From the UHGV virus genome UHGV-0341595: DNA of 17,209 nt. The stretch is one strand, 5' to 3'. The translations under genes and the position numbers were made by a program. Of this stretch, positions 2,158 through 17,209 are shown one piece after another. Every line of letters starts with the position of its first letter. Position 1 is the stretch's first letter. The stretch comes from a virus. The notes below the pieces were generated by a model. The model did no database searches. It saw nothing but the letters and a program-made list of their open reading frames with translations, and was not told where the DNA came from.

Positions 2158-2988
2158 ACCGGACTCCTCCTGCGATCCCTTCTGATACTGTCATCAGCAT
2201 TACGTCATCCTCCGTCATGTCCGCCACATCCGGGGAAGCGGGGATAACTTCATTCCCGTCCGGGCCAAAGCGGACGCCTCCGGCAAGCCCTGCCGCTTTC
2301 TGCATCAGCACATCATCTTCAGGCTCTTCGTCAGCCTCGCGCCGGTTCAGCAGACTGAAATCCAGCGGATGCATATCCGGCTCGCTGAAAAACAGGCTGA
2401 GTACGGTGTACGTCAGCCCGGAAAAGTGCATATCCAGCAGAACATCATGAAAATAATGGGTACTGTAAAAGCGGTGCCAGTCGGCATACTCCGTGGATGA
2501 CATCCCGGCAAGCATGGCGCGCCAGTCGGGTCGCCCCATCTCACGCGCCAGTTTCAGGGCAAAACTCAGCTCACCGTCGAACACTTTCCCGCAGAAACAG
2601 GCTCTGCTGGCCCGGCGTCATCTGCCTGTTCAGGTGCATCATTCACAACAAACTCAGACATACCGGACAGACGCATTACCACATTTTCAGCCTGAGCAAT
2701 TGCCTCTGTGGGCCAGGTGGTAAGCACTTCCTGCTCAATTTGTTTAACGGCTTCATTCATGGACGGCATCTTTGTCTTCTGCGGATGGCTATGCCACAGG
2801 GACATCGCCACCAGAAAAGCACCGGTTCTGACGAGATCTTCCACGCTCACCTGTCGATTGAGACTGGATCCCGCCTGTTCTGCCTGTCGTTTCAGCAGGG
2901 CGAGATGCTCAATTCGCTGCAGGGCTGACAGTTCAGAAAGCGTGACGCTCACACCGTTATATTCAAATGATTCGGTTTTCAGGAACAT
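2150..2988 (-). CDS. T: Tail assembly chaperone G-T fusion made by programmed -1 ribosomal frameshift; the T portion (2150..2584) has no start of its own
   Basis: Minus-strand heptamer G GGA AAG (plus-strand 2584..2590, ctttccc) lies in the G frame 6 codons before the G stop. The -1 frame continues as VFDGELSFALKLAREMGRPDWRAMLAGMSSTEYADWHRFY... to a stop at 2150, 7 nt before the H start. Same architecture as lambda G/GT. Confidence 0.85.
2566..2988 (-). CDS. G: Tail assembly chaperone G (lambda gpG-like), 140 aa
   Basis: ORF track 2566..2988 (-), MFLKTESFEYNGVSVTLSELSALQRIEHLALLKRQAEQ...; same length and position (between V and T/H) as lambda G; ends 18 nt past the slippery heptamer. Confidence 0.9.
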   Translation of the reverse strand: MFLKTESFEYNGVSVTLSELSALQRIEHLALLKRQAEQAGSSLNRQVSVEDLVRTGAFLVAMSLWHSHPQKTKMPSMNEAVKQIEQEVLTTWPTEAIAQAENVVMRLSGMSEFVVNDAPEQADDAGPAEPVSAGKCSTVS

Positions 2989-3003
2989 CGCTGACTCTCC
3001 GGA

Positions 3004-3744
3004 TTAACTGTCGGTGACGGTGATTTCTGCAACCACAGCAAGTTCACCATTACCGGATACAACCGGAATGTTGACCTTGCCTGCAGCAACACCTTTCACG
3101 GTGATGGTCATACCACTGACCGACACGGTGGCTTTTGTTTTATCCGCAGACACCGCACGGAAGCTCTTGTCGGTTGCGCCTTCCGGCTGGAATGCCACGG
3201 TCAGCGTGGTGCTCTGCCCTTTCACCACCGAAGTGCTGGCAGGCGTCACGGTCATGCCGGTTGCCGCTGTTACCGTGCTGCGATCTTCTGCCATCGACGG
3301 ACGTCTCACGTTGGTGACTTTCACCGTGCGGGTGATCACTTCCTTCGCCGTCACCGCCTTACCGATACTGCTGACCCAGCCGCGGAACACATCGACCGTG
3401 CCGTTCGGGAAGCGGATTTTATAGGCACGGGTATCCCCTTCATTAAACCACGCCAGCAGCGCCTGCTGCCCCTGCTCTCCGGGCATCCACGCCAGCGTGA
3501 AGCTGGTATCTCCGGCAGATTTCTGCCCCTGCCCGGTCGCAGTCCAGTCCGCATCTTCATCATCGAGATAGCTGTCGTCATAGGACTCAGCGGTCAGTTC
3601 GCCGGGCGTCAGGTCTTTAACTTTAGCCAGACGCGACCAGTCAACGTCTGAAAGCGGGTTCGCATAAGGGTCACCGTTCCCCTTATAAACCCACAGTGTG
3701 GTCCCGGCCCCTTTCACCGGCATTACTGGATTTGGTACAGGCAT
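3004..3744 (-). CDS. V: Major tail tube protein V (lambda gpV-like) with C-terminal Ig-like domain
   Basis: ORF track 3004..3774. I place the start at the internal ATG 3744..3742 ([22 protein letters not shown]...), which has a GAGGA RBS and lies 8 nt after the U stop; gives 246 aa. C-terminus is T/S/V-rich, typical of the V Ig-like domain. Confidence 0.9.
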
Positions 3745-3751
3745 ATCGTCC

Positions 3752-4147
3752 TCACATTTCATAGGTAATGACATAAGTCAGATCGGCTGAACTCCACAGG
3801 CCCGCATCATCGTCGCGCCGGTAGTCATAGCCACTGGCCACCATACTGGTGATCAAATCTGACAGTGCCGGGACATCGCTCATCACCGGATAAATCCGGG
3901 ACTCCATCCACGAATCCAGCTCTGAATCCGGCACCTGAGCAGGCAGGAAAACTTCAATATGCAGCTCCGCCTGCCAGGTATCACTGTCCAGCTCTTCGCC
4001 CGTGTATTCAGCGCCGGTGAGATAAACGGCAATTGCCGGAAAATCCGCCTCATCAAAAACAGCGGGGCGACCATCAAAAAGCGTCGCCCCGGTGTCATGC
4101 TTCTCCAGTGCATCCAGTACGGCTGCACGGAGTTCAGTATGTTTCAT
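3752..4147 (-). CDS. U: Tail terminator protein U (lambda gpU-like), 131 aa
   Basis: [72 protein letters not shown]...; ATGA start/stop overlap with Z; lambda order Z-U-V. Confidence 0.92.
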
Positions 4148-4722
4148 CGCTTTATTACCATTCTCAGTTGATGCTGCAGCGCATAGCCCAGCTCTTTCGG
4201 AAGACGTTCACGCCGTATCCGTTCAATATTCTGTTTAAACGCCGTGGTAAGCGGCACCGCCATCGGGATTTTCACCACATCAATGGGGTAACGGTTTTTC
4301 CCGGCCACACGCTGCATGACATGCCACCGGCCATTTTTCAGTTGCTGAATAAACGCGCCGGGAATACGACGGTTTCCCACCACAAGCACGCTGCCGCCAC
4401 CTTTCAGGGATGAACGCTGCCCCTTTTTACGACGTCTGCGGCGGGAAAGGACAACCCGCGCGTTACCCAGCTTGATTACGGGCAAATCCCCCCGGTTAAC
4501 CCTGATTCTGGCCTGCGGATTTTTGACCGTGGCCCTTTTCAGCCTGGCCCTTTCCTTTACCAGTTTCCGGCGTACCTTTGTCTCACGGGCAACCTGTGAC
4601 GCAGACTGCGATATCGCGGATGACGCAACGCGGTTAATGGCCATTGCGGCGGCACCAGGCACCGCCGTTTTGCTGATACGGCTGAGGTTTTCAACGGCCT
4701 GCTCAAGACCTTTTATGGCCAT
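4144..4722 (-). CDS. Z: Tail completion protein Z (lambda gpZ-like), 192 aa
   Basis: ORF track 4144..4722; length and position between FII and U as in lambda; basic RRRRRKKGQR stretch. Confidence 0.88.
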   Translation of the reverse strand: MAIKGLEQAVENLSRISKTAVPGAAAMAINRVASSAISQSASQVARETKVRRKLVKERARLKRATVKNPQARIRVNRGDLPVIKLGNARVVLSRRRRRKKGQRSSLKGGGSVLVVGNRRIPGAFIQQLKNGRWHVMQRVAGKNRYPIDVVKIPMAVPLTTAFKQNIERIRRERLPKELGYALQHQLRMVIKR

Positions 4723-4733
4723 ACATCCCCCTT

Positions 4734-5087
4734 TCAGCGGCGACGGTTAACGGCAGGCGGCACGCCACGCCCAAGCCAGAGATGACAGCTTCCGCCATCA
4801 TCCGGCGAAATCCGGTCCACCCAGAAGTTTTCCTCGCCGATGGTCAGTGTGTCTCCACGCCGCAGCTGCCGCACATCATCAGTCCGGACAAACAGGGACG
4901 GGCTGGAGCCTTCAACGCGCACCCCCTGTCCGGCATAGCTGATATTTTCAGGGTCATCAAAAACACCACGTATCACAGCACCGGACAGCTCACCGGATGT
5001 CATGGTGGCTGACGTTCCCATGTACCCGCGTATCGTTTCATCGGCGCGGGCAATGGCAGCATCGAACAGGTTATCGGAATCAGCCAC
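4734..5087 (-). CDS. FII: Head-tail joining protein FII (lambda gpFII-like), 117 aa
   Basis: MADSDNLFDAAIARADETIRGYMGTSATMTSGELSGAVIRGVFDDPENISYAGQGVRVEGSSPSLFVRTDDVRQLRRGDTLTIGEENFWVDRISPDDGGSCHLWLGRG...; same length and position as lambda FII. Confidence 0.9.
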   Translation of the reverse strand: MADSDNLFDAAIARADETIRGYMGTSATMTSGELSGAVIRGVFDDPENISYAGQGVRVEGSSPSLFVRTDDVRQLRRGDTLTIGEENFWVDRISPDDGGSCHLWLGRGVPPAVNRRR

Positions 5088-5098
5088 AGCGCCTCCCG

Positions 5099-5494
5099 TT
5101 ATTGCATTCTGGCCAGGCCATGTTCTGTCATTTCGGCTGCCACACCGGCAGAGACACGAAACGCCGTTCCCGGCAGCACAAATGCCACAGGCTCATCCCG
5201 CGTGGCGTGAAGTGCATCAGTATGCAGCGTCACCAGTGCCACGACCGTGACCAGAGCAGCCGTATCAATCACGGTATCCGGCTGCGCTGATACCACCTCA
5301 TTTTCATGTCCGGTCAGCGCATTTTCCGGGCTGACAGATGTGTCCTGACCGGCAGCGTCATCCGTGTCATCAAGCTCCTCTTCCAGCTCTGCCACACGGA
5401 GCACCAGTTCTTCTTTCGTCCCCGTCAGGCTGACATCACGGTTCAGTTGCTCACCCAGCACCTGAAGACGGGCAATCAGTTCATCTTTCGTCAT
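5099..5494 (-). CDS. FI: DNA packaging/head assembly protein FI (lambda gpFI-like)
   Basis: ORF track 5099..5533. I place the start at ATG 5494..5492 (MTKDELIARLQVLGEQLNRDVSLTGTKEEL...), preceded by GGAGGA; this gives ~131 aa, matching lambda FI. The upstream 13 codons of the track ORF are probably not translated. Confidence 0.85.
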   Translation of the reverse strand: MTKDELIARLQVLGEQLNRDVSLTGTKEELVLRVAELEEELDDTDDAAGQDTSVSPENALTGHENEVVSAQPDTVIDTAALVTVVALVTLHTDALHATRDEPVAFVLPGTAFRVSAGVAAEMTEHGLARMQ

Positions 5495-5535
5495 GGACTC
5501 CTCCACAGAGAGAAAATGGCCCCGAAGGGCCATGA

Positions 5536-6324
5536 TTACGCCAGTTGTACGGACACGAACGCATCAGGATCAGCCAGCAGCATCAGCGGTGCTGACTGAA
5601 TCATGGTGAACTCACGCGCCGGATCGCCGGTGGTCACCCAGTTTTTCGGGTAGCGGGCAGAGGCGTTAATACCTTCGCGCTGTGCGTCCGCATCCTGAAT
5701 GCAGCCATAGGTGCGCAGACCGCGTGCCTGAGTGTTCCCCAGCACCATCGTGTTGTCCGGCAGGAAGTTCTTTTTGACGTCGTTTTCCACGTACTGTCCG
5801 GAATACACGACGATCGCCGTATCGCCATACATCCCCTTATAGGACACCGCTTCGCCCAGGTCTTTTACCGCTGTCTCCAGCTCGGAATTAGAGCCGCGAC
5901 GGGTATCCAGCTTCTCCTTGACGGCTTTGAAGGAACGGAACAGCGCCCAGCCTTTCGGATCAAACACGATGATATTCACCACGCCGCTGGCGTTCAGCGC
6001 GTAGGCTTCGATATCGTCGGTCGGGTCATACGTGGACTTGTCACGCTTGCTCCACTCCGTGCCGCCGGACTGCGTGATGTTGTTCGCCGCACTGCGGCCC
6101 ATATCCACCTCAACCGGATCGAAGGCTTCACCGGTCATGGTGTATTTGCCCTTGAGCACGGCAGAAACTGCCTGCATCTCTTCGACCTGAGCAATGGCCA
6201 GCTCTTCGTCACGCATGTTCTGCAGGATGATGCGACGGCGGCGGTAAGCCGGGTCCGCCAGATTCTGCGGATCTTCATCCGGCAGGCGACGCAGGGTCAT
6301 CTGCGGATTCACCTCATGCTTCGG
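5536..6324 (-). pseudogene. E: Major capsid protein E (lambda gpE-like), 5-prime truncated: only the C-terminal ~260 codons remain
   Basis: Translation ...PKHEVNPQMTLRRLPDEDPQNLADPAYRRRRIILQNMRDEELAIAQVEEM ... PLMLLADPDAFVSVQLA corresponds to lambda E from about residue 82 to the end. The frame hits TAG at 6327..6325 exactly where composition switches to AT-rich. No E N-terminus upstream; the track ORF starts at an internal GTG. Confidence 0.85.
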
Positions 6325-6352
6325 CTACATGAGTCAATCCCGAAAGAACTAT

Positions 6353-6382
6353 TTGATTTCACTTAGCTTTGTGGTTTATATA
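6353..6382 (+). promoter_or_regulatory. Candidate sigma70-type promoter for the DUF262-HEPN cassette
   Basis: TTGATT (6353..6358), 18-nt spacer, TATATA (6377..6382), about 100 nt upstream of the DUF262 ATG in an AT-rich non-coding stretch. Pattern match only. Confidence 0.3.
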
Positions 6383-6480
6383 TCTACGCAACTCCTATCA
6401 CTGCAATACTTTCTGCAATACAGATATGTGTAGTGAGGACTTGTCTAAAAACCATATTCACGAAGAAAAAGGATGACACG

Positions 6481-7644
6481 ATGCAACCAGAAGATTATGA
6501 AGAAAAGCAATACGAGGATGAGCCAGAATCCTATCCAATTGATGAGTTTCAACTTACTACTACGCCCAATGATTTTAATATAATCACAATTATAAGTTTT
6601 ATTAAATCAAAAGTTTTTAAAATCCCTAACTTTCAAAGGCATTATGTTTGGGATATCAAACGAGCATCAAAACTCATTGAATCTCTTTTAATAGGCCTTC
6701 CTATACCTCAAATATTTTTATATGAACAAGATAAAAATGAATTTTTAGTGATAGATGGTCAGCAGAGATTAATGACCCTTTATTACTTTGTAAATGGTGT
6801 ATTCCCTAGAAAAGAGAAACGTTCTGAACTGAGAAAAATCTTTGAAGATAATGGAAACATTCCAGAAAACATTCTTCACAATGATGAATACTTCACAAAG
6901 TTCAACCTAAAACTTGATGGTCTATCAGACACCCAAAAAAACAAGTTTAATGGGAAAAACTATGAAACATTAAACGAATTTCAAACCACTTTAAATCTGG
7001 CAACCATACGAAATATGGTAATCAAACCGGTTGCACAAGATTCGGAAGATGGTGCAATGTTTGAAATATTTAACCGCCTAAATAGTGGGGGAATGAACCT
7101 TTCTCCTCAAGAAATTCGTATGAGTTTATATCACTCAGACTTTCTTTCAAATCTTGTTTCATTGAATGAAAACAAGACATGGAGAAAAATTCTTTCAAAA
7201 AATGTTGTTGACATGCGATTGAGTGATATTGAAGCGATATTGCGCACATTTGCTATGTCCCTTTTTACATCTCAATACAAAAGCTCAGTTAGCGGTTTTT
7301 TGAACAATTTCTCAAATTATGCAAAAAACTACGACACTAAAGACATAATTTTATTTAGTAATATATGGAATGAATTTATGGATAGTGTTGATGGAATTGA
7401 TGAAATCAATTTCAGAACTGGTGGGAATCGTATGAGTATAACTTTATTTGAGTCAATTTTTTATGCTGCAACTTATGACTCATTTAAAGATAAAGATCTA
7501 AAAATAAGACAAGTGACGGTGAATTATATCGATAAGCTTAAAAATGATCCTGAATTTCTGACATTTAGTACTGATAAAACAACAAGAAGAGAGCATGTAA
7601 TTGGACGTCTAGAACGTGCAAGAACAATTTTGGAGGGAATGTAA
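6481..7644 (+). CDS. DUF262 (ParB/Srx-like N-terminal nuclease/NTPase) domain protein, ~387 aa
   Basis: ORF track 6433..7644; likely start ATG 6481 (MQPEDYEE...) with AAGGA 7 nt upstream. Contains the hallmark DUF262 motif FLVIDGQQRLMTLYYF and a second conserved block FEIFNRLNSGGMNLSPQEIR. Low-GC codon usage unlike the flanking phage genes. Confidence 0.8.
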   Translation: MQPEDYEEKQYEDEPESYPIDEFQLTTTPNDFNIITIISFIKSKVFKIPNFQRHYVWDIKRASKLIESLLIGLPIPQIFLYEQDKNEFLVIDGQQRLMTLYYFVNGVFPRKEKRSELRKIFEDNGNIPENILHNDEYFTKFNLKLDGLSDTQKNKFNGKNYETLNEFQTTLNLATIRNMVIKPVAQDSEDGAMFEIFNRLNSGGMNLSPQEIRMSLYHSDFLSNLVSLNENKTWRKILSKNVVDMRLSDIEAILRTFAMSLFTSQYKSSVSGFLNNFSNYAKNYDTKDIILFSNIWNEFMDSVDGIDEINFRTGGNRMSITLFESIFYAATYDSFKDKDLKIRQVTVNYIDKLKNDPEFLTFSTDKTTRREHVIGRLERARTILEGM

Positions 7645-7648
7645 AATA

Positions 7649-8197
7649 ATGGAGGATATGGGATATACTTCTATTGAAAGTATGTTTAATAACTATAAGT
7701 GTTATTATGATTTTCTTCTAACTCATAATGAGATTAGTTTTGCTAATGATTACAAATCACAATTTTCAAAAGTAATGCTATTAGCATGTGCTAGCTATTT
7801 TGAAACTTTAGTTGTAACTAAGATACATTGTATGCTTAACCCAAGCCAATGTAATCTTACACACGATTTTATCGATAATAAGGCCCTAACCAGGCAGTAT
7901 CATACACTCTTTGATTGGAAAAAAAGGAATGCAAACCAGTTTTTTTCCTTTTTTGGCCCAAAATTTAAAGAGTTTATGATTGAGAAGGTAAAATCAAGCA
8001 CAGAGTTGACCAAGTCTATCTCTGATTTTATGGAAATCGGAGAGCTAAGAAATAAATTAGCACATAATAATTATGCTACTTTTGTATTAGAAAGCACAGC
8101 TGAAGAGATTTATAATAAATTTTTAAATGCACATTCATTTGTCTCTCAACTAGATACGTTCAGTACACAGTTTAGAGAGCAAATTGGTGAACAGTAA
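7649..8197 (+). CDS. Small HEPN-motif protein (putative RNase-type effector), ~182 aa, coupled to the DUF262 gene
   Basis: ORF track 7616..8197; likely start ATG 7649 (MEDMGYTSIE...), 5 nt after the DUF262 stop, with GGAGGG upstream. C-terminal ELRNKLAHNNY fits the HEPN R-x4-6-H motif. I recall HEPN-like nucleases of this type being annotated adjacent to DUF262 proteins. Family assignment is by motif only. Confidence 0.6.
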   Translation: MEDMGYTSIESMFNNYKCYYDFLLTHNEISFANDYKSQFSKVMLLACASYFETLVVTKIHCMLNPSQCNLTHDFIDNKALTRQYHTLFDWKKRNANQFFSFFGPKFKEFMIEKVKSSTELTKSISDFMEIGELRNKLAHNNYATFVLESTAEEIYNKFLNAHSFVSQLDTFSTQFREQIGEQ

Positions 8198-8235
8198 TAG
8201 TTTATCTCCAGCAAAAAAAATAACTTGCAAATAAT

Positions 8236-8262
8236 AAAAGCGGTCGCGTGACCGCTTTTTTC
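8236..8262. terminator. Bidirectional rho-independent terminator
   Basis: aaaaGCGGTCgcgtGACCGCtttttt: 6-bp GC-rich stem, 4-nt loop, A-run before and T-run after, 39 nt downstream of the HEPN stop. Confidence 0.75.
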
Positions 8263-8409
8263 TATTTATCATTGCTATTTTCCTTTATTATTTCAGCAAT
8301 TGACATAACTAAGGCGTCTGCTTTATTTCTAGTCCTATCAAACATATCTCTAATTACATCAATATAATAATGTTCCTCAAAAATATTTACGTCTGACAAA
8401 AGTATTGCA

Positions 8410-8456
8410 CAACTCTTGCCCAAAATGTCAGCCAGTTGATCTTTGTTGACTTCCAT
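8410..8456 (-). pseudogene. nu1: 5-prime fragment of terminase small subunit gene nu1 (first ~15 codons only)
   Basis: The track ORF 8262..8456 starts MEVNKDQLADILGKS, matching the lambda Nu1 N-terminus MEVNKKQLADIFGAS as I recall it, then diverges into AT-rich sequence with no further Nu1 similarity. The 64-aa ORF is most likely a chimeric remnant. Confidence 0.7.
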
Positions 8457-8676
8457 TGTTCATTCCACGGACAAAAACAGAGAAAGGAAACGACAGAGGC
8501 CAAAATGCCCGTTTTCAGCGCCTGTCATTTCCTTTCTTTTCAGGGGGTATTTTAAATAAAAACATAAAGTTACGGCGAAGAAGAACGGAAATGCCTTAAA
8601 CCGGAAAATTTCCATAAATAGAGAAAAACTGCGCGCCTGACGCCCCGTAGCCTGTCAGATCGCCGGAAAGGACCCG
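8457..8676 (-). other. Lambda-type cos site (cosQ-cosN-cosB), oriented with the minus strand
   Basis: The minus strand reads ...GGGTCCTTTCCGGCGATCTGACAGGCTACGGGGCGTCAGGCGCGCAGTTTTTCTCTATTTATGGAAATTTTCCGGTTTAAGGCATTTCCGTTCTTCTTCG...GAAAAGAAAGGAAATGACAGG...GGCCTCTGTCGTTTCCTTTCTCTGTTTTTGTCCGTGGAATGAACAATGGAAGTCAAC, near-collinear with the lambda left end/cos region as I recall it, ending at the nu1 start. cosN core is around 8630..8650. Confidence 0.75.
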
Positions 8677-8701
8677 CCAGCCAGAGCGGGCCCTAATTTC
8701 A

Positions 8702-9085
8702 TCAACCAATCAGCTTATAGCGACCATCCCGTGCATTGCGGCGTACACGCTCAATCTTGAGGCATAGCGCCGCATCTGGCTTTTTTGGGACAGGTACGCG
8801 GCAATATTCAGAAGCGCGAGGAATATTATTTATCCAGTCGATCACTTCACTTAAATACCAGGCCTTACGCCCTTCCGTAACCTGCACACGCTCCGGGAAC
8901 TCTCCACTAGCCTCAAGGTTTAGCAGTGTACGCCGACTCAGGGTTGTAATTTCCATCACCTGATTCATATCAACAAGGCGCTCGCTTAAACACATTTTGT
9001 CAGCGATAGCTTTTAATTCCTCTACAGCTGGATTCGGGTACATCATTTCGGCAATTGGCTTAAGGTCATTGTAATCATTCTGCAT
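8702..9085 (-). CDS. AlpA/MerR-like HTH domain protein, 127 aa, last gene of the E-like/D-like operon, abutting cos
   Basis: ORF track 8702..9085. Central segment MEITTLSRRTLLNLEASGEFPERVQVTEGRKAWYLSEVIDWI fits the AlpA-family HTH pattern. RBS AAGGGGGA 5 nt before the ATG; start is 11 nt after the D-like stop. Confidence 0.6.
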   Translation of the reverse strand: MQNDYNDLKPIAEMMYPNPAVEELKAIADKMCLSERLVDMNQVMEITTLSRRTLLNLEASGEFPERVQVTEGRKAWYLSEVIDWINNIPRASEYCRVPVPKKPDAALCLKIERVRRNARDGRYKLIG

Positions 9086-9096
9086 TGTATCCCCCT

Positions 9097-9438
9097 TTAC
9101 ACACGAGCCAGCGGCTGAACAGAAATACCTGAGCCAACAAACGCTGCAATCTTTACTGACAGTTCTTTTACAGACTCAGGCCAGTTCAGAGCATCAACAT
9201 TTAAGACACCTGTCTTATAGACCTGAGCCTGTGTTTTTTTCGCGGTGTCGATTTGTACAGCGGAAACATAAACCGCTTTACCTACGCTCGAACCATCCCA
9301 TACCACCAGTGCACCTGTTGCATCTTCCTGCATCAGTGGCGTAAATGCAGGAATTACCCCTTTATTAGCTGAAAATATCCCCAGCGTAGTCACCAGTGCT
9401 TCAGTGCCAGCCATGAGTTCAGTGTAATGAGTAGCCAT
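9097..9438 (-). CDS. Head decoration protein, lambda gpD family (divergent), 113 aa
   Basis: TPLMQEDATGALVVWDGSSVGKAVYVSA...KTGVLNVDALNWPESV...KIAAFVGSGISVQP parallels lambda D (TPLMLDTSSRKLVAWDG...LWPEA...AFAGTAISIV) in size and motif order. GGGGGAG RBS overlaps the E-like stop. Confidence 0.7.
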   Translation of the reverse strand: MATHYTELMAGTEALVTTLGIFSANKGVIPAFTPLMQEDATGALVVWDGSSVGKAVYVSAVQIDTAKKTQAQVYKTGVLNVDALNWPESVKELSVKIAAFVGSGISVQPLARV

Positions 9439-9447
9439 TGCTCCCCC

Positions 9448-10488
9448 TTAGCCAATGCGAACGGTAACAAAACGATTGATGCGGGCCGGTATTGGCTGTG
9501 GTGCTGAATGTGTCTGCACATATTCAATAGCCGGATCACCAGGCACAATATAGTTTTTCGGTGCAAGTTCGGCTTTAGTCAGCCCCATTCGGATTAGCTC
9601 CGGATCCTGAATACCGCCATAGGCGACAATCCCCTGAAGAGCCGTATTGCCAAGCACCATCAAATCAGGATCAAGGAAATGTTTTTCAGTTCCGTCCTCG
9701 TCGGTATAACGCCCGCTGTATACAACAATCGCAACATCGCCCATATACCCTTTAAAACTCACCGAATCACCAAGGTCTTTAAGAGCCGTTTCCAGTTCGG
9801 AATTAGAACCACGACGGGTATCCAGAGCCTCTTTTATCGCTCTGAATGAACGGTATTTCTTCCATACATTACCGCCCATAATGATGATATTAGTGACGCC
9901 CTCACTAAATTCTGCGTAGCTCTCAATATCATCATTTGGATCAAAAGTTTCTTTATCCTTACCTGACCACTCAGCACCGCCAGACTGAGTGATGATATTT
10001 TGTGGTTTAATATTCCAGTCCAGCTCATAACGTTCAATACCATCGCCCTCAATGATATTTTTCCCCGTTGTGATTGCCTGAACGGCAAGCCATTCAATAC
10101 GTGCACGAATAGCTTTAGCCTGATTTACAATCGCCTGTTTAACTTTAATATTACGCGCTCCAAAAGCATTGTATTGCTCAGGTGATACACCAGCAGGGCG
10201 CACAGCTAACTTATTTGGATCAATGCTGCTTTTCGGCTTCATATAGCCTGGACGAATTGTTTTTGATTCGTACCCTTCGTCACGTGAAACTTTACTACCC
10301 GCCATAGGAGAACAAAACGCTGCAATTGGGATATTTGGATCGTCGATTGTATCAAGAATAATATCGCGCGATTCAAACATTACCGAGCGAGTAAAAAACA
10401 AACTGGTAAACAACGCATTTAGTTGTTTTTGTACATCTACAGCATTAACCACCTGTACAAGCTGGGTAGGCGAATATAAATCAACCAT
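9448..10488 (-). CDS. Major capsid protein, lambda gpE family (divergent, apparently intact), ~346 aa
   Basis: ORF track 9448..10662 (404 aa). Similarity to lambda E starts near MRMVDLYSPTQLVQ; AAGAGG RBS favours ATG 10488 (alternative 10494). Shares long identical stretches with the truncated E in this window (DTRRGSNSELETA, AIVVYSG, ITQSGG) but is otherwise divergent. The first ~57 track codons are probably untranslated leader. Confidence 0.8.
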   Translation of the reverse strand: MVDLYSPTQLVQVVNAVDVQKQLNALFTSLFFTRSVMFESRDIILDTIDDPNIPIAAFCSPMAGSKVSRDEGYESKTIRPGYMKPKSSIDPNKLAVRPAGVSPEQYNAFGARNIKVKQAIVNQAKAIRARIEWLAVQAITTGKNIIEGDGIERYELDWNIKPQNIITQSGGAEWSGKDKETFDPNDDIESYAEFSEGVTNIIIMGGNVWKKYRSFRAIKEALDTRRGSNSELETALKDLGDSVSFKGYMGDVAIVVYSGRYTDEDGTEKHFLDPDLMVLGNTALQGIVAYGGIQDPELIRMGLTKAELAPKNYIVPGDPAIEYVQTHSAPQPIPARINRFVTVRIG

Positions 10489-10662
10489 ACGCATCCTCTT
10501 TGCATTCATTAAAAATAATTGTGGATATATGCTATCACCGATATTTGTCATGCGAATACATGCAACCGAGTGCAATGTTGTATAAAGTTTTGGGATAACA
10601 ACTTCAGCGCGGATAATTAGTGTTAATATCTTCACTCCCTTTGGCCGGGATTTATGTAGCAT

Positions 10663-10696
10663 GCCGGAAAATTTATTTTTTTCCGGCCTTTTTTAT
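10663..10696 (+). terminator. Hairpin with plus-strand intrinsic-terminator features
   Basis: GCCGGAAAA-tttattt-TTTTCCGGC followed by CTTTTTTATT on the plus strand, between the ssb stop and the E-like upstream region. There is no U-tract in the minus orientation, so it would stop transcription antisense to the capsid operon. Confidence 0.45.
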
Positions 10697-10705
10697 TGGC
10701 AATAT

Positions 10706-11155
10706 TTAAAACGGAATATCATCTCCCCATTGTTCATTATCTCCCACTGGTGGATGGCTTCCTTGCTGATCTGCCTGTTGTTTTGCTCTGTTCAGTGCGT
10801 CAGTAGCCTGACCCTGTTGACCTTTTTTGCCGCCCGGTCGCACCGTTCGCGCACTGATTACGCTGTCTGCGATAACCTGCCAGCCCTGCCGCGTTTCACC
10901 GTTCTGTCCAGTCCACTGGCTCACCTGCATATTACCCGCCACGCTCAGGAGTTCGCCTTTGTGATGCTTTGCCAGCGCGTCGGCTTGTCTGCCAAACGCC
11001 AGGACAGATAACCACATCGTCGCCTGACCGTCATCCGACTGACTGCAGGGCAGTGATACCGCCATACGCGCCAGCGTCATGGGGGTGCCCTTGCTGGTCT
11101 GTTTTGTCTGCGGGTCGTCCACCAACCGCCCGTAAACTGATATTTGCGCCGTCAT
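10706..11155 (-). CDS. ssb: Single-stranded DNA-binding protein (SSB-like), 149 aa
   Basis: N-terminal OB-fold pattern VYGRLVDDPQ...TLARMAV...WLSVLAFGRQADALAKHHKGELLSVAGNMQVSQWTGQNGETRQGWQV, a Gly/Gln-rich linker and the acidic C-terminal tip GDDIPF typical of bacterial/phage SSB. Confidence 0.8.
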   Translation of the reverse strand: MTAQISVYGRLVDDPQTKQTSKGTPMTLARMAVSLPCSQSDDGQATMWLSVLAFGRQADALAKHHKGELLSVAGNMQVSQWTGQNGETRQGWQVIADSVISARTVRPGGKKGQQGQATDALNRAKQQADQQGSHPPVGDNEQWGDDIPF

Positions 11156-11397
11156 GCTGCCTGCTCTCCGGACTTAATATTGATTGTTGTCACTTCCTCC
11201 GCTTCAGCAATCTCCCGTTCGGTCAGAGTGGCAAAGTTTGCAGCCGCCGTTGTCATGAATGCGCTAATCAGTTCGGGATGTGCTTTCGCGTATCCTTCCC
11301 CGGCGTTGCGGTCGATGATTTTTATCGACACCCTTAACCAGTGTTCCGTCAAATCAAGGGCGTGCGATTGTGATTTTTTTGTGTGCTTCGCTGTCAT
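11152..11397 (-). CDS. Hypothetical protein, 81 aa, translationally coupled to ssb
   Basis: ORF track; ATGA overlap with the ssb start; directly downstream of the iteron cluster. No recognisable motif. Confidence 0.45.
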   Translation of the reverse strand: MTAKHTKKSQSHALDLTEHWLRVSIKIIDRNAGEGYAKAHPELISAFMTTAAANFATLTEREIAEAEEVTTINIKSGEQAA

Positions 11398-11443
11398 AGG
11401 CTTTATCTCACAGCAGTAAATTAAAATTTTTGCGTTTTAACCC

Positions 11444-11680
11444 TTCACCTGTTCACCTTTTGATATTTTCTCTTTTAATTCATAATGTTAATGGGTGAAC
11501 AGTTTCACAAAAACTATTCACCAACTGTTCACCACTGTTCACCACTGTTCACCCTTGAAGCTCAATAAACAATCAAAAAGGTGAACAGTGAATAGTTTGG
11601 TGAACAGTTCATAAATAACTGTTCACCCTATAATATACTGATATAAAAGATATTTATGACAGGGTGAACAGTGGTGAACA
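11444..11680. repeat. Iteron cluster (putative replication origin): at least 10 perfect copies of TGTTCACC/GGTGAACA plus degenerate copies
   Basis: TGTTCACC at 11450, 11526, 11536, 11546, 11620; GGTGAACA at 11494, 11580, 11599, 11663, 11673; degenerate TATTCACC 11515 and GTGAATAG 11588. Lies just after the primase stop (11695). The octamer is the P4 type I iteron bound by P4 alpha in ori/crr, as I recall it. Confidence 0.8.
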
Positions 11681-11694
11681 GTTATTCCATAAGT

Positions 11695-13515
11695 TTAATT
11701 TTTGCTATCGTCATTAGTGACCGATACACATGATGGCATCCAGTCTTCTGATTCCTCCGTCAGTGTCACGTTTGAACGCAAACCGTGCTTCGTTTTCCGT
11801 TTCATATACTCCCTGCCATATTCCGCCATTGCCCCCGGCATATCTTTACCGAAGCGCGTCAGTGTTACAGGTTTACCAAACCCATGTGCCCTCATATAAG
11901 CCAGATAGGCATGATAGAGATACCTGCGTGGGCTGAATGGCACAATTTCAGCATTACCCACTAACAGGCCATCACACATTACCGATGCCATGAGATAGCC
12001 GCAGAAGTCCACCAGCGAATCCCCCTCTCGCTTTATCGCCAGTGCTTCTTCAGATTTCTGCTGCTCATATAACAGGCGTCTGGCTTCGTCCTGATCAGCA
12101 AACCGTGTAAGCAGATGGCGAATCACTACCGCCAGCTCACCTTCTATTTTTTCCGCCAGCATCGAATCGCGTTCGTTCTCCGGTACAACTTCCGAAAAAT
12201 TGAATATCACCCGACGACGTGAGATCCCCCCGCTGCGGTCACTGAATGACATGGCGTTATTGTTAACCGCCAGCACTACTGCCGGAATACGCGTTGAATA
12301 GGGGGCTTTGTGTTTCGGGTCAATTGCCACCTTGTCACCGCCTGTAATGGCCTTAATCCCTGCCCCATCACCAGCGTAGCGGGTCATATCCGGCATGATA
12401 ATCAGCGAAAAGCCAACCACTAACGCACGTTCCCTTGCATCTTCCAGCGCCTTCATGCTTGCTGATACTGTATTAGCCTTACCCGCCAGCATGGTGCAAA
12501 TCTCCGCCATCACACTTTTACCACTTCCCCCCGGCCCTGTTACCTCAATGAATAACTGCCAGTCGTACCGGTTCGCCAGCACCATGAATAATGCCGCCAG
12601 TACGCGATCTGCCTTGCGGTCATTCTCAGCCACCGAACGGCGCAACCACTTCCAGAAATTCGGCGCATGTGTTGCCAGCGTTTCCCCCTCTGCTGGTGGG
12701 CTGAAAGGTAATTCACTGGCAATTAACAACCAGTCGTTTTTGTTATGCTCCCGAAAATTACCAGTTCTGGTATCAAATACCCCGTTACTGAATCCAATCA
12801 GGTTACGGGCTGTATTCCCCATTACAGGCAAACTTAACTTCATGGTATCTACCGCCGATTTAATAGCGTTCTGCGAATAGCTGATCTCCGCATCAATGAA
12901 AATCTGCGCCATAGCACGCTGTAACTCTTTATCCTGAACCGGCTCCCATACAACGCCGTTGTAATGATGAACGGTGTCAGAGTCGGCATTGATTGCCAGT
13001 TCGCCGCCGTAATGTGCAAGGAGAACTTCACCGCGCTGGCTGGCCCCCATCTGATTCAACGCCAAAGATGAAGCACGCTCGTCATTTTTGCGCTCTGCCT
13101 TCTTCACTGGCAGTTCAATCACCAGACTTTCCCCATGCTCCGCTTCAGCTTTTAGGCCGACAAGGCGCGGAGTCCAGTCTTCAGGCTCTCGATCAACAAA
13201 GCTACGGTAACAACGTGCTTCCTTTACGCCTGCAATAGCAAGTAATGTCGCAACCTTCGTCAGACTTTTCTCTGCAATCTTTCCGGCACGATAAACACGC
13301 ACATAATGACGGCCTTCATCGATAATTTGCATATCATCCAGGTTTTCCAGTTGTTCCGTACCCAGAATGACTGGTGGTGTATCATCTGCTGCAATATGCT
13401 TACCTGCCCATTCATTCCATTCTTTTGCATGACTCCAGGCATCACTGCCAGCAAAAATGATGACTTCCGTCATTTTGTCGCGCGGTTGGTATTTTAAGTT
13501 CGGAGCACGTTTCAT
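11695..13515 (-). CDS. Replication initiator primase/helicase (P4 alpha-like; D5_N/SF3 NTPase type), 606 aa
   Basis: ORF track 11695..13515; strong GGAGG RBS 5 nt before the ATG; Walker A GPGGSGKS in the central region; size and position (after int-alpA, before iterons) typical of P4/PICI replication proteins. Confidence 0.8.
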   Translation of the reverse strand: MKRAPNLKYQPRDKMTEVIIFAGSDAWSHAKEWNEWAGKHIAADDTPPVILGTEQLENLDDMQIIDEGRHYVRVYRAGKIAEKSLTKVATLLAIAGVKEARCYRSFVDREPEDWTPRLVGLKAEAEHGESLVIELPVKKAERKNDERASSLALNQMGASQRGEVLLAHYGGELAINADSDTVHHYNGVVWEPVQDKELQRAMAQIFIDAEISYSQNAIKSAVDTMKLSLPVMGNTARNLIGFSNGVFDTRTGNFREHNKNDWLLIASELPFSPPAEGETLATHAPNFWKWLRRSVAENDRKADRVLAALFMVLANRYDWQLFIEVTGPGGSGKSVMAEICTMLAGKANTVSASMKALEDARERALVVGFSLIIMPDMTRYAGDGAGIKAITGGDKVAIDPKHKAPYSTRIPAVVLAVNNNAMSFSDRSGGISRRRVIFNFSEVVPENERDSMLAEKIEGELAVVIRHLLTRFADQDEARRLLYEQQKSEEALAIKREGDSLVDFCGYLMASVMCDGLLVGNAEIVPFSPRRYLYHAYLAYMRAHGFGKPVTLTRFGKDMPGAMAEYGREYMKRKTKHGLRSNVTLTEESEDWMPSCVSVTNDDSKN

Positions 13516-13799
13516 TTGTTACCTCCGGCAACTAACATTGCCCGAATTTTACGGATATAGCCTGCGGCACGCCTCTGATTATCTGTCTTGCAATTTTTTA
13601 CCAGAATGAAATCTCTTTCGAACTGCTGACGCGGCATAACACATTCAAAATCATAACCATCACGCAAATAAGAGACACGACGATCATCAACCGAAATAAT
13701 CTTTACCCGATAGCCATAGCTGTCTTTAAAAATATCCCCAAGGCTGATTTTTGAATGAGTTTGACCGCTGGCAATAAAGCCAGAAAATTTATTTTTCAT
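13512..13799 (-). CDS. Hypothetical protein, 95 aa, coupled to primase
   Basis: ORF track; stop overlaps the primase ATG (ATGA). No recognisable motif. Confidence 0.45.
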   Translation of the reverse strand: MKNKFSGFIASGQTHSKISLGDIFKDSYGYRVKIISVDDRRVSYLRDGYDFECVMPRQQFERDFILVKNCKTDNQRRAAGYIRKIRAMLVAGGNK

Positions 13800-13802
13800 T
13801 TT

Positions 13803-14027
13803 TTATTCTCCGGTATAGCTCTGGTCGTGTATTTTTATAGCTTCATCCAGCTCTTTGATGACAGGATCAAGTAACGTAATTAACGCTCCAGCTAAATTAG
13901 CATCCCGTTCATCGTGTTCCGCATTTGTTGTCCCATCAAGCCAGGTTGATAAGATTTCTCGCATATTTTTGCCACAAACGAGCGCGTTTTCAGCATGTGT
14001 CAGCACTTTAAAATAAAGATCATTCAT
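13803..14027 (-). CDS. Hypothetical protein, 74 aa
   Basis: ORF track; tightly packed in the same operon (3-nt gap to the next gene). No recognisable motif. Confidence 0.4.
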   Translation of the reverse strand: MNDLYFKVLTHAENALVCGKNMREILSTWLDGTTNAEHDERDANLAGALITLLDPVIKELDEAIKIHDQSYTGE

Positions 14028-14385
14028 GGCACACCTCCTGACGAATACGGGCAGCGAATATCATCACGTAGCCAGTTGGGGATTGCAGCCGGGCTTCCTG
14101 TTCGCTGGCGGCCTCGATGTGTATTACGCGTGGTTGTGCGGTGCTCAGGGCGATAAAACGCCAGATGAAATTGTTTTCGCATTTCTGAATAAACAGCGTG
14201 TTTTCTTCACGCCCTTTCCAGAAAGCCGCAGTATAGCCCATCTCCTTAACCATCTTGCGGGCATCAACCAGCGTGTCAGCGGCTACATGTACCGTAGTTG
14301 CTCCATCTGCCATGCGGTCGTGGTGTAGTGCCAGAAAGGTGTATATAAATTTAGGGTGAGTTTGGGTATGCTGTGTTCCAGCCAT
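14020..14385 (-). CDS. Hypothetical protein, 121 aa, first gene of the replication-side operon
   Basis: ORF track; 8-nt overlap with the downstream ORF; preceded by a palindromic regulatory region. No recognisable motif. Confidence 0.45.
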   Translation of the reverse strand: MAGTQHTQTHPKFIYTFLALHHDRMADGATTVHVAADTLVDARKMVKEMGYTAAFWKGREENTLFIQKCENNFIWRFIALSTAQPRVIHIEAASEQEARLQSPTGYVMIFAARIRQEVCHE

Positions 14386-14415
14386 AATCGTTACCTCATT
14401 TAACGGGTTGGTTAG

Positions 14416-14448
14416 ACGCCTCGATGGTGTTCCCGCACGTCGAGGCGT
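14416..14448. promoter_or_regulatory. 9-bp inverted repeat hairpin in the leader of the minus-strand operon
   Basis: ACGCCTCGA (14416..14424) and TCGAGGCGT (14440..14448) with a 15-nt loop, followed on plus by TGCATTTTCC. Could be an attenuator/terminator or a protein-binding site. Confidence 0.4.
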
Positions 14449-14468
14449 TGCATTTTCCTAAACACGTA

Positions 14469-14522
14469 TGTAATGTGTCATCACACATTAACACATTACA
14501 TCGGGTGTAATTGACGTGTCAA
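14469..14522. promoter_or_regulatory. Operator-like palindromes in a divergent control region
   Basis: TGTAATGTGT (14469..14478) is the reverse complement of ACACATTACA (14491..14500); ACACATTA is tandemly repeated (14483, 14491); second palindrome TTGAC-GT-GTCAA at 14511..14522 overlaps a -35-like TTGACG. Confidence 0.5.
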
Positions 14523-14695
14523 CACACAAAAATCAAAGACGTGGTAATCCTCCGTTCCAGTTTCGGTTAGATCCTGAGTTGAGGGAGTTGATGGAGCAAG
14601 CACAGCAAGTAGATGGAGACGAATCTTTAGCAGCCTGGATTAAAAGGATTATTCGCAAAGAACTACAGCAACGCGGATATGAAGTCAAAATTTAA
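14516..14695 (+). CDS. Small ribbon-helix-helix-like putative regulator (59 aa from GTG 14516, or 34 aa from ATG 14591); not in the ORF track
   Basis: Hand translation: VSTHKNQRRGNPPFQFRLDPELRELMEQAQQVDGDESLAAWIKRIIRKELQQRGYEVKI, stop TAA 14693..14695. The FQFRLDPELRELMEQA segment fits the RHH beta-strand/helix pattern. GAGGGAG lies before the ATG at 14591. Only plus-strand gene in the satellite backbone. Confidence 0.4.
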   Translation: MSTHKNQRRGNPPFQFRLDPELRELMEQAQQVDGDESLAAWIKRIIRKELQQRGYEVKI

Positions 14696-14708
14696 CAGAT
14701 AATATTTC

Positions 14709-14741
14709 ATATAGAGCCATTTATCTCGAATGGCTCTATAT
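14709..14741. terminator. Bidirectional terminator hairpin between convergent genes
   Basis: 12-bp perfect stem (14709..14720 and 14730..14741) with a 9-nt loop, AT-rich flanks; between the RHH ORF end (14695) and the TIR-like gene end (14771). Confidence 0.6.
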
Positions 14742-14770
14742 CTATGCAGATTTTTAGTTCAAAGAATTTA

Positions 14771-15646: not shown

Positions 15647-15682
15647 GCTTACACCCTTTTATATAACAATTTACTACAACAT

Positions 15683-15910: not shown

Positions 15911-15911
15911 G

Positions 15912-17135: not shown

Positions 17136-17209
17136 GGGAGCAGAGCACCCACCCGGTTCACAGGCCAGTCGGCGATGACATCAAGTACATAATGCAGATA
17201 GCGTTCCGG

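What the first reader, a model, noticed from the sequence alone, without database searches (positions are those of the whole stretch)
5536..10488. Two E-family capsid genes 3 kb apart: one canonical but truncated, one divergent but intact
The truncated lambda-type E (5536..6324) and the intact divergent E-like gene (9448..10488) share blocks of identical peptide sequence (DTRRGSNSELETA, AIVVYSG, ITQSGG) amid otherwise substantial divergence. The intact copy has a different N-terminal region and is paired with its own D-like gene. This is unusual for a single phage genome. It fits a satellite capsid homologue co-residing with helper-type genes, and the conserved blocks could be interaction surfaces or recombination substrates.
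Basis: partly seen in the sequence, partly recalled or inferred. Interest (0 to 1): 0.55.

Follow-up and report, generated by a model that had tools for sequence, protein, structure and literature searches.

The report
Satellite inserted in prophage capsid gene
The "truncated" lambda-type capsid gene is one half of a prophage gene that an 11-kb phage satellite has split by inserting into it, and the second capsid gene belongs to that satellite; this arrangement was published in 2023 as a "helper-embedded PICI", so the finding is real but not new.

Summary
Window 5536..6324(-) encodes residues 80-341 of lambda gpE at 97% identity. Window 9448..10488(-) is an intact 346-aa E-family gene, 47% identical to it, followed by its own D-like gene. 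The E gene is not decayed. It is split at codon 80 by site-specific insertion of an ~11-kb integrase/AlpA/primase/SSB element that carries the E-like and D-like genes, a copy of the helper cos site and defence cargo. In the closest complete genomes the other 80 codons of E lie just beyond the integrase, and joining the halves gives an in-frame 341-codon E. This element is Eco567.11capE of E. coli NRG857c, the founding helper-embedded PICI (Tommasini, Mageeney & Williams 2023, PMC10111431). The window's integrase residues 27-411 are 100% identical to it. New details here: an IS66-family element interrupts the integrase in this copy. The E-like gene is an old lineage, found only in satellites in every context I read, under strong purifying selection. 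It also sits in satellites inserted in the portal gene beside an intact helper E, so it is not merely a spare. The shared peptide blocks reflect protein constraint, not recent recombination. Its function remains untested.

The parts
1..5533 (-). Late genes of the lambdoid helper prophage downstream of E: tape-measure H (partial), T/G, V, U, Z, FII (4734..5087) and FI (5099..5533).
   Evidence: Collinear at 97-98% identity with the annotated NRG857c prophage. Pfam Packaging_FI and Phage_attach hits.
5536..6324 (-). 3' part of helper major capsid gene E (codons 80-341 plus stop), cut off from its first ~80 codons by the insertion.
   Evidence: 97% identical to lambda gpE residues 80-341. RefSeq annotates the same stretch as a capsid pseudogene missing its N-terminus.
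6317..6326 (-). attR crossover core (AGCCGAAGCA on the gene strand), the boundary between satellite and helper E. It encodes K-P-K-H of the PGYVKPKH motif.
   Evidence: Sequence read. The 10-bp attL/attR identity block AACCCAAGCA lies at the same place in GPEC709. Lambda's uninterrupted E reads AAGCCGAAGCAT.
6401..6423 (-). Doubled motif cTGTATTGCAgaaAGTATTGCAg, the arm-type motif of HE-PICI attP, about 80-90 bp from the core.
   Evidence: It matches the published tgTGTATTGCantgTGTATTGCa motif, one copy of which lies 81 bp from the attP centre (PMC10111431). The second copy is seen in GPEC709 between the core and int.
6433..8197 (+). Low-GC (30%) two-gene defence cargo on the opposite strand: a DUF262/GmrSD_N protein (6433..7644) and a RiboL-PSP HEPN protein (7616..8197).
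   Evidence: Composition, Pfam, and PADLOC hits NsnA / PD-T4-2_A with a weak PD-T4-2_B.
8419..8676 (-). Satellite copy of the helper cos region: cosQ, cosN (8634..8645), lambda-type cosB and the first 13 codons of Nu1.
   Evidence: 90% identical to the helper's own cos/Nu1 start. The cosN 12-mer is GGGCGTCAGGCG against the helper's GGGCGGCGACCT. The same 258 bp at 90% are reported in PMC10111431.
8702..9085 (-). 127-aa AlpA-type HTH protein, downstream of the D-like gene in all but one of the 89 related loci read; role unknown.
   Evidence: Pfam Phage_AlpA, PDB 8c3t at E=2e-9, and present in 79 of 80 IMG/VR loci.
9097..9438 (-). Satellite head-decoration (gpD/SHP-like) gene.
   Evidence: Pfam HDPD, 38% identical to lambda gpD, and PDB hits to phage 21 SHP and lambda gpD.
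9448..10488 (-). Satellite major-capsid-family gene (E-like), intact at 346 aa.
10706..13799 (-). Satellite replication zone: SSB (10706..11155), D5-type primase/helicase (11695..13515) and DUF4222 (13512..13799).
   Evidence: Pfam.
14438..15692 (-). Swapped accessory cassette relative to NRG857c. It contains a 291-aa TIR-domain protein (14771..15646).
   Evidence: No alignment to NRG857c over this stretch. Pfam CAP12-PCTIR_TIR and PADLOC PDC-S35. The same cassette is present in 36 complete genomes.
15683..17069 (-). Integration zone: AlpA (15683..15910) and tyrosine integrase codons 27-411 (15912..17069).
   Evidence: Pfam Phage_AlpA. The integrase is 385/385 identical to the 11capE integrase residues 27-411.
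17070..17209 (-). End of an IS66-family insertion sequence (tnpC C-terminus plus terminal repeat) that interrupts the integrase after codon 26. attL and the first 80 codons of helper E are therefore outside the window.

Best explanation
The window holds two nested mobile elements of E. coli. A lambdoid prophage is the helper. Its major capsid gene E has been split at codon 80 by site-specific integration of an ~11-kb phage satellite of the helper-embedded PICI type. This satellite is a copy of the published element Eco567.11capE.

Shown here:
- The satellite is co-oriented with the helper late operon. It consists of int and alpA, a variable accessory cassette (here a TIR protein), a primase/helicase and SSB, then a late module of E-like capsid, D-like decoration protein and an AlpA-type HTH, then a copy of the helper cos site and a DUF262+HEPN defence pair.
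- The 'truncated E' is the distal half of the split helper gene.
- The 'divergent E' is the satellite's own gene. It belongs to an old lineage seen only in satellites among the contexts examined, and it is under purifying selection.

From the published experiments on NRG857c (not tested here): on induction the whole composite excises and replicates. The satellite excises later, and only then is helper E restored. The satellite therefore delays helper capsid production and is passively replicated. It is probably also transcribed by the helper's late operon.

Inferred:
- The satellite DNA is packaged by helper terminase through its lambda-type cosB.
- E-like and D-like are made as real structural proteins, because they are conserved as a cognate pair. 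Whether they form satellite shells, co-assemble with helper E, or do something else is not known.
- In this particular copy an IS66-family insertion has removed the first 26 codons of int. Excision and restoration of helper E are probably blocked unless integrase is supplied in trans.
For: - Helper gene halves: in NRG857c and GPEC709, which are 98-100% identical to the window, codons 1-80 of E lie 160 bp beyond int, followed by D, C, B, W, A and Nu1. Joining the halves at the 10-bp attL/attR identity block gives 1026 nt, an in-frame 341 aa that is 98% identical to lambda E. The element there is 10,983 bp long.
- Window E fragment: it equals lambda gpE residues 80-341 at 97% identity.
- Integrase: residues 27-411 are 100% identical to the 11capE integrase.
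- att motif: the HE-PICI doubled TGTATTGC motif lies next to attR, and the second copy lies next to attL in GPEC709.
- cos copy.
- Publication: the same element, the same 10-bp block, the same cos copy, 201 instances at site E:Phage_cap_E:80, and att-site qPCR and sequencing after mitomycin C (PMC10111431).
- Satellite lineage of E-like: the best of 50,697 phage records is lambda E at 41.7%. The E-like/D-like cassette is in 395 of 5426 complete E. coli genomes, and 365 of those keep the SSB..HTH block contiguous. SSB, E-like and D-like sit together in all 80 IMG/VR loci (HTH127 in 79 of them), and E-like, D-like and HTH127 sit together in loci from four other genera.
- Selection: dN/dS among E-like alleles is 0.02-0.09, and synonymous sites against lambda E are saturated.
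Against: - The window lacks attL and the first 80 codons of E, because it ends inside an IS66-family element. The split-gene reading for this genome therefore rests on near-identical complete genomes, not on the window alone.
- No particles of the 11capE/50icd pair were ever recovered (PMC10111431), so packaging and transfer are unproven.
[quoted passage not shown] No phenotype is therefore attached to this gene class.
- The satellite cosN differs from the helper's at 5 of 12 positions. Whether helper terminase cuts it is untested.
Confidence: 0.92

Rival explanations
1. The E-like gene is a spare copy captured from the helper, so that capsids can still be made while the helper's E is split. 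This is the backup-copy idea raised in PMC10111431.
For: It is an intact E-family gene paired with a D-like gene inside an element that breaks E. The authors propose it.
Against: - It is only 42% identical to the helper E, with saturated synonymous sites, so it is not a recent capture.
- The same allele (98-99% aa) sits in satellites inserted in the portal gene B, where the helper E is intact 5 kb away and no spare portal is carried.
- It also sits in chromosomal PICIs at cspD/clpS and tRNA-Pro, which break no phage gene.
Confidence: 0.12
2. E-like and D-like redirect or sabotage helper capsid assembly. They could do this by forming smaller satellite-sized shells or by poisoning helper shells, as the capsid homologue Ccm of SaPIbov5 does.
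For: - There is precedent in SaPIbov5 Ccm and in PmCI172, which makes small capsids and carries a capsid homologue (PMC6092414).
- Strong purifying selection points to a function.
- The N-arm and E-loop region is the most diverged part, at 13-33% identity. A cognate D-like gene always travels with E-like.
Against: For EcCICFT073, deleting c1499 or c1500 left interference unchanged and all packaged DNA was phage-sized. That homologue is, however, only 55% identical to this E-like. The satellite encodes no portal, protease or scaffold of its own.
Confidence: 0.2
3. There are two unrelated prophages, or a prophage and a remnant, lying side by side. On this view the truncated E is a product of deletion and decay, not of insertion.
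For: The window alone shows only one junction, and IS elements are present.
Against: - The two halves of E flank the element exactly and rejoin in frame at a 10-bp repeat in complete genomes.
- The element has a PICI organisation, with no portal, terminase or tail genes.
- The integrase clade and att motif are those of HE-PICIs.
- Precise excision was measured experimentally.
Confidence: 0.02

Closest known systems
Eco567.11capE, helper-embedded PICI at site E:Phage_cap_E:80 in E. coli NRG857c (Tommasini, Mageeney & Williams 2023, PMC10111431)
   Same: It is the same element. The window is 97.9% identical over 1183..14201. The integrase is identical over residues 27-411. The insertion point in E, the att motif, the E-like/D-like pair (99.9% nt), the cos copy and the DUF262+HEPN cargo are all the same.
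   Different: - The accessory cassette between alpA and the Icd-like gene is replaced, with a TIR protein instead of YlcI plus a hypothetical protein.
- int is interrupted by an IS66-family element.
- The attR core carries the lambda allele AGCCGAAGCA instead of the AACCCAAGCA read in strain GPEC709.
EcCICFT073, the model Gram-negative PICI (Fillol-Salom 2018, 2019)
   Same: It has the int-alpA / primase / capsid homologue (c1499, PDB 3BQW) / decoration homologue (c1500) / cos layout and lambdoid helpers.
   Different: - It is integrated in the chromosome, not in the helper.
- Its capsid homologue is only 55% identical.
- Per the literature it uses Rpp with a non-lambda cosB. The window element has lambda-type cosB and no Nu1-like gene.
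Capsid-forming PICIs (cf-PICI; Alqurainy et al. 2023)
   Same: The satellite encodes its own HK97-fold capsid protein.
   Different: From my knowledge of that literature and the abstract seen, cf-PICIs encode a full head and packaging set: capsid, protease, portal, connectors and small terminase. This element has only the capsid and decoration genes.
SaPIbov5 Ccm (capsid-homologue size redirection)
   Same: It is a satellite-borne homologue of the helper's major capsid protein (cited in PMC6092414).
   Different: It is in a Gram-positive host and belongs to an unrelated capsid family. Its small-capsid function is demonstrated there and is untested here.

Membership tests
Helper-embedded PICI (HE-PICI), E:Phage_cap_E:80 group | Primary tyrosine integrase belongs to the HE-PICI clade / cap_E subclade | tested here: met
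   Residues 27-411 are 385/385 identical to the 11capE integrase WP_000896726.1. The first 26 codons are replaced by an IS66-family end.
Helper-embedded PICI (HE-PICI), E:Phage_cap_E:80 group | Inserted within a late gene of a lambdoid prophage and co-oriented with it | tested here: met
   The attR side is in the window. The satellite abuts codon 80 of helper E, and all core genes are on the minus strand like the late operon. The attL side is seen only in near-identical complete genomes.
Helper-embedded PICI (HE-PICI), E:Phage_cap_E:80 group | Short attL/attR identity block with no replacement sequence, and the target gene restored by precise excision | tested here: met
   There is a 10-bp block AACCCAAGCA in GPEC709, and the rejoined E is 1026 nt, in frame, 341 aa. 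This could not be tested on the window's own attL, which lies outside it.
Helper-embedded PICI (HE-PICI), E:Phage_cap_E:80 group | Doubled TGTATTGC motif at fixed distances on both sides of the attP centre | tested here: met
   One copy lies at 6401..6423, about 80-90 bp from the core. The second copy lies about 135 bp from the core in GPEC709. The second copy is not in the window.
Helper-embedded PICI (HE-PICI), E:Phage_cap_E:80 group | Four-zone PICI organisation (int+AlpA / variable Bro-type zone / primase+SSB / late zone) with no tail genes | tested here: met
   Pfam hits for int, Phage_AlpA, D5_N/DUF5906/Pox_D5, SSB, Phage_cap_E and HDPD. There are no helper portal, terminase or tail homologues inside the element.
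Helper-embedded PICI (HE-PICI), E:Phage_cap_E:80 group | Helper-dependent induction, excision after composite replication, and transfer in helper particles | not testable with these tools
   Excision and replication were shown for NRG857c by qPCR and sequencing, but no particles were recovered (PMC10111431).
Rpp-type Gram-negative PICI (EcCICFT073 type) | PICI-specific cosB next to a gene whose product redirects helper TerS (Rpp) | tested here: not met
   The window element has lambda-type cosB at 90% identity and only 13 codons of Nu1. It has no Nu1-like gene, unlike the chromosomal PICIs L003 and L004. Whether the Nu1-like gene of L003/L004 is Rpp could not be confirmed, since it has no PDB sequence match.
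Capsid-forming PICI (cf-PICI) | Own complete head and packaging module (capsid, protease, portal, connectors, small terminase) | tested here: not met
   Only the capsid and decoration genes are present. No portal, protease or terminase family is found in any element ORF scanned.
P4-like satellite | Sid/Psu capsid-size and decoration genes and P2-type helper signals | tested here: not met
   None of the ORFs scanned hit Psu, Sid or Delta families. No C4/isrK-type RNA reached the Rfam gathering score. The helper is lambdoid.
Pfam Phage_cap_E (lambda gpE family, HK97 fold) | Full-length match to the family profile and to solved gpE-family structures | tested here: met
   E-like matches profile positions 4-327 of 329. 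PDB 3BQW scores E=1e-120 and lambda gpE 7VI9 scores E=9e-76.

The most novel reading that the evidence does not exclude
The E-like/D-like pair is the satellite's own shell. While helper E stays split, late transcription reading through the embedded satellite yields only E-like and D-like. The first procapsids built on the helper's portal, scaffold and protease would then be satellite-type, possibly with a different size or stability. They would be filled through the satellite's variant cos site before the helper can make any capsid of its own. This would be a capsid takeover that needs only two satellite genes plus physical control of the helper's gene. It would give the first function to the capsid homologues that most Gram-negative PICIs carry.
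Probability: 0.15. Interest if true: 0.6.

Novelty: already known. Interest (0 to 1): 0.2.

Why it matters
The arrangement is a striking piece of phage biology: a parasite that lives inside, and physically breaks, the capsid gene of the virus it exploits. However, it was found, named and partly tested in 2023, in a strain whose element is almost identical to this one.

What remains open is what the satellite's own capsid and decoration genes do. This analysis narrows that question:
- They are an old lineage seen only in satellites in the contexts examined, and strongly conserved.
- They always travel as a capsid/decoration pair, with the AlpA-type HTH downstream in nearly every locus read.
- They are also carried by satellites that leave the helper's capsid gene intact, so 'spare part for the broken gene' is not a sufficient explanation.

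The IS-disrupted integrase in this copy is a natural example of a satellite locked inside its helper.

Tried and rejected
- Rfam scan of the whole window at gathering thresholds found nothing, including no P4-type C4/isrK immunity RNA.
- The promoter/terminator scan of 6000..11800 gave no more sites than shuffled sequence. Only a bidirectional hairpin at 8236..8259, between convergent genes, is worth noting.
- I tested whether the 127-aa HTH next to cos is the packaging-redirection protein Rpp. Its only PDB sequence match is an AlpA-family protein, so this is not supported.
- I tested whether the Nu1-like gene of the chromosomal relatives matches a solved structure. It does not.
The result was negative. 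I also checked whether the blocks are a peculiarity of this allele. They are conserved in E-like alleles from five genera, while the CFT073 homologue has diverged there.
- I considered adjacent prophages, prophage decay, and recent duplication of E. I rejected them on the precise in-frame rejoining and on saturated synonymous divergence.
- Two look-ups in the Mol Cell 2019 paper timed out. A later one gave only general statements.
- I did not run the large protein-database searches or structure prediction. The identification did not depend on them, and a crystal structure of a homologue exists (3BQW).

Full report
**What is in the window**

The window is E. coli DNA.
- Positions 1..5533 carry, on the minus strand, the tail and head-completion genes of a lambdoid prophage (H, T/G, V, U, Z, FII, FI). 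They are collinear at 97-98% identity with an annotated prophage of strain NRG857c.
- Positions 5536..6324(-) encode 262 residues that match lambda gpE residues 80-341 at 255/262 identity.
- A 30%-GC block follows with two plus-strand genes, a DUF262/GmrSD_N protein and a RiboL-PSP HEPN protein.
- The rest is on the minus strand: a 258-bp copy of the helper's cos region, a 127-aa AlpA-type HTH protein, a D-like gene (9097..9438), an E-like gene (9448..10488), SSB, a D5-type primase/helicase, DUF4222, an Icd-like gene, a TIR-domain protein, AlpA and a tyrosine integrase.

**Check of the observation**

Both E-family genes are at the stated coordinates.
- They share 113/239 identical residues (47%, E=3e-71).
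- The D-like protein hits Pfam HDPD and is 38% identical to lambda gpD.
- Against full-length lambda E, the E-like protein is 30% identical over residues 1-79 and 45% over residues 80-341. Identity peaks at 77% around residues 212-256 and drops to 13-33% over the N-arm and E-loop region.

**What it is**

The complete genomes closest to the window are GPEC709 (99.7% over the 5000..11500 junction and 100% over 14300..17069) and NRG857c (97.9% over 1183..14201).
- In both, the missing first 80 codons of E lie about 160 bp beyond the integrase. They are followed by D, C, B, W, A and Nu1 of the same prophage.
- attL and attR share the 10-bp block AACCCAAGCA.
- Joining the two E pieces there gives a 1026-nt, in-frame, 341-codon gene that is 98% identical to lambda E. 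The inserted element is 10,983 bp.

So the 'truncated' E is the distal half of a gene split by site-specific insertion of an ~11-kb integrase-bearing element. The 'divergent' E belongs to that element.

**This is published**

A literature search found Tommasini, Mageeney & Williams, NAR Genomics and Bioinformatics 2023 (PMC10111431). [quoted passage not shown] They report:
- the 10-bp identity block;
- 201 instances at the site they call E:Phage_cap_E:80, and 290 more at 13 other sites in lambda-type late genes;
- a doubled motif tgTGTATTGCantgTGTATTGCa at 81 bp and 132 bp from the attP centre;
- the 258-bp, 90%-identical cos copy;
- qPCR and sequencing after mitomycin C, showing that the composite excises and replicates first and the satellite excises later. 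No particles were recovered.

I verified the defining features independently:
- The window's integrase residues 27-411 are 385/385 identical to the 11capE integrase.
- The doubled motif lies at 6401..6423, next to the attR core at 6317..6326.
- The second motif copy lies between attL and int in GPEC709.
- The cos copy is at 8419..8676.

**What differs in this copy**

1. The window ends in the terminus of an IS66-family element (17070..17209). This stretch is 100% identical to tnpC ends elsewhere in E. coli. It replaces the first 26 codons of int. attL and the E N-terminal half are therefore not in the window. The integrase of this copy is probably inactive, which would lock the satellite in place and keep the helper E broken. 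That last step is inference.
2. The cassette between alpA and the Icd-like gene (14438..15692) is swapped relative to NRG857c. It carries a TIR protein (PADLOC PDC-S35), a variant found in 36 complete genomes.
3. The attR core reads AGCCGAAGCA, the lambda allele, rather than AACCCAAGCA.

**Is the E-like gene a satellite lineage or an ordinary phage capsid?**

- Among 50,697 phage records, the best match to the E-like protein is lambda E itself at 41.7%. None reaches 60%.
- In 5426 complete E. coli genomes, 395 carry the E-like/D-like cassette, and 365 of them keep the SSB..HTH block contiguous.
- I read contexts in 89 other loci. In all 80 IMG/VR loci the gene sits between SSB and the D-like gene, and the HTH127 gene follows in 79 of them. 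The two annotated chromosomal PICIs, at cspD/clpS and tRNA-Pro, show the same SSB / E-like / D-like / HTH order, as do NRG857c and GPEC709.
- In the four loci from Kluyvera, Superficieibacter, Cedecea and Kosakonia, E-like is followed by D-like and HTH127. Two of these loci also show the satellite primase, but the SSB query found nothing there.
- No locus shows it as the capsid gene of a complete phage head module.
- All seven E-like alleles compared, from five genera, are intact and 346 codons long. dN/dS is 0.02-0.09. Synonymous sites against lambda E are saturated (pS 0.72-0.78).
- The CFT073 PICI homologue c1499, whose crystal structure is PDB 3BQW, is 55% identical to E-like and 43% to lambda E. 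The PICI capsids are thus closer to each other than to lambda.

The refutation test fails to refute: this is an old lineage carried by satellites.

**The conserved blocks**

- At identical residues inside the four blocks, the two genes use the same codon in 13 of 32 cases, against 39 of 83 outside the blocks (Fisher p=0.68).
- The longest shared exact DNA word is 14 nt.
- The blocks are also conserved in E-like alleles from all five genera.

They therefore reflect protein-level constraint in the best-conserved part of the fold. There is no sign of recent gene conversion, and they are poor substrates for homologous recombination. Whether they are contact surfaces was not tested.

A related point: the att core encodes K-P-K-H of the PGYxKPK motif. 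That motif is conserved in lambda E, E-like, c1499 and even the distant YSD1 capsid. The integrase thus targets one of the most invariant spots of the family. The satellite's own gene codes the same peptide with different downstream bases, AAGCCGAAAAGCAGC against AAGCCGAAGCATGAA.

**What the satellite capsid genes do**

This is the open part.
- The published suggestion is a backup for the broken helper gene. My context survey argues that this is not the main reason. Of 80 IMG/VR loci with a ≥98%-identical E-like allele, 42 are in E (integrase 99-100% identical to the 11capE integrase). Ten are in the helper portal gene B, with an integrase only 53-54% identical. In two of those that I read in full (L061, L085), the portal is split after residue 279, the helper E is intact 5 kb downstream, and no spare portal is carried. 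Chromosomal PICIs carry the module too.
- Strong purifying selection and the invariable capsid/decoration pairing suggest a real structural role. Divergence is concentrated in the N-arm and E-loop region. From my knowledge of lambda capsid structures, that region is where gpD docks, so the pattern would fit a cognate capsid/decoration pair. This is inference, not a result.
- I rate 'assembly redirection or interference' at about 0.2 and 'spare part' at about 0.12. The rest is unknown.

**Packaging**

- The 11capE-type elements (window, NRG857c, GPEC709) keep lambda-type cosQ and cosB, but their cosN 12-mer is GGGCGTCAGGCG against the helper's GGGCGGCGACCT.
- The chromosomal relatives L003 and L004 keep lambda's cosN, have a non-lambda cosB, and carry a Nu1-like gene downstream. 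That layout is the one Feiss describes for Rpp-type PICIs (PMC9026076).
- The window element therefore most likely uses helper Nu1 directly. This is inferred, and cleavage of the variant cosN is untested.
- Four copies of the 10.98-kb element total 43.9 kb. By my own arithmetic and general knowledge of lambda packaging limits, that is within lambda head capacity.

**Verdict**

The feature is already known. Interest is low for discovery purposes, with a modest residual question about the function of PICI capsid homologues.

Noticed in passing
window 17070..17209: The end of an IS66-family insertion sequence (tnpC C-terminus plus terminal repeat) replaces the first 26 codons of the satellite integrase. 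None of the listed best matches among 5426 complete E. coli genomes extended across this junction. The satellite is probably locked in the helper's E gene in this strain.
   Followed up: partly
window 8634..8645 (cosN) within 8419..8676: The satellite's cos copy keeps lambda-type cosQ and cosB, but its 12-nt cohesive-end sequence is GGGCGTCAGGCG against the helper's GGGCGGCGACCT, with 5 differences all in the right half. The same variant is in NRG857c and GPEC709. Related satellites show other cosN variants (L007, L008, L009).
   Followed up: partly
window 8460..8615 (-): A 51-aa ORF starts with the first ~13 codons of the helper's Nu1 (MEVNK.QLADI) and then continues into unrelated sequence. 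It has no family match. It may be a by-product of capturing cos.
   Followed up: no
window 6433..8197 (+): A 30%-GC, opposite-strand gene pair of DUF262/GmrSD_N and RiboL-PSP HEPN, with PADLOC hits NsnA / PD-T4-2_A and a weak PD-T4-2_B. It is likely anti-phage cargo at the satellite's distal end. The two genes overlap or abut, and a bidirectional hairpin follows at 8236..8259.
   Followed up: partly
window 14438..15692: An accessory cassette is swapped relative to the published NRG857c element. A 291-aa protein with a C-terminal CAP12/Pycsar-type TIR domain (PADLOC candidate PDC-S35) replaces YlcI plus a hypothetical protein. This looks like a second variable cargo slot.
   Followed up: partly
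L061 and L085 (IMG/VR), 1915..17133: A 98-99% identical E-like/D-like module sits in a different helper-embedded satellite, whose integrase is 53-54% identical. That satellite splits the helper portal gene after residue 279. The helper's E is intact 5 kb downstream, so two complete E-family genes coexist there.
   Followed up: yes
window 6317..6326; L002 near 4036 and 15011: The att core lies in the codons for K-P-K-H of the PGYxKPK motif, which is conserved across the whole Phage_cap_E family as far as phage YSD1. The core differs by two bases between this window (AGCCGAAGCA) and GPEC709 (AACCCAAGCA), so the integrase tolerates, or has adapted to, synonymous alleles of the target.
   Followed up: partly
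window 964..1182: A ~220-nt stretch inside the tape-measure gene does not align with NRG857c although both flanks do. It is a local variable segment of gene H.
   Followed up: no
L003 10617, L004 10578, L006 11821: Chromosomal PICIs with the same capsid module keep lambda's cosN. L003 and L004 replace cosB with a GGTGG-repeat sequence followed by a Nu1-like (36-37% identical) gene annotated as small terminase. It may be the Rpp-type arrangement, but the protein has no sequence match in the PDB.
   Followed up: partly
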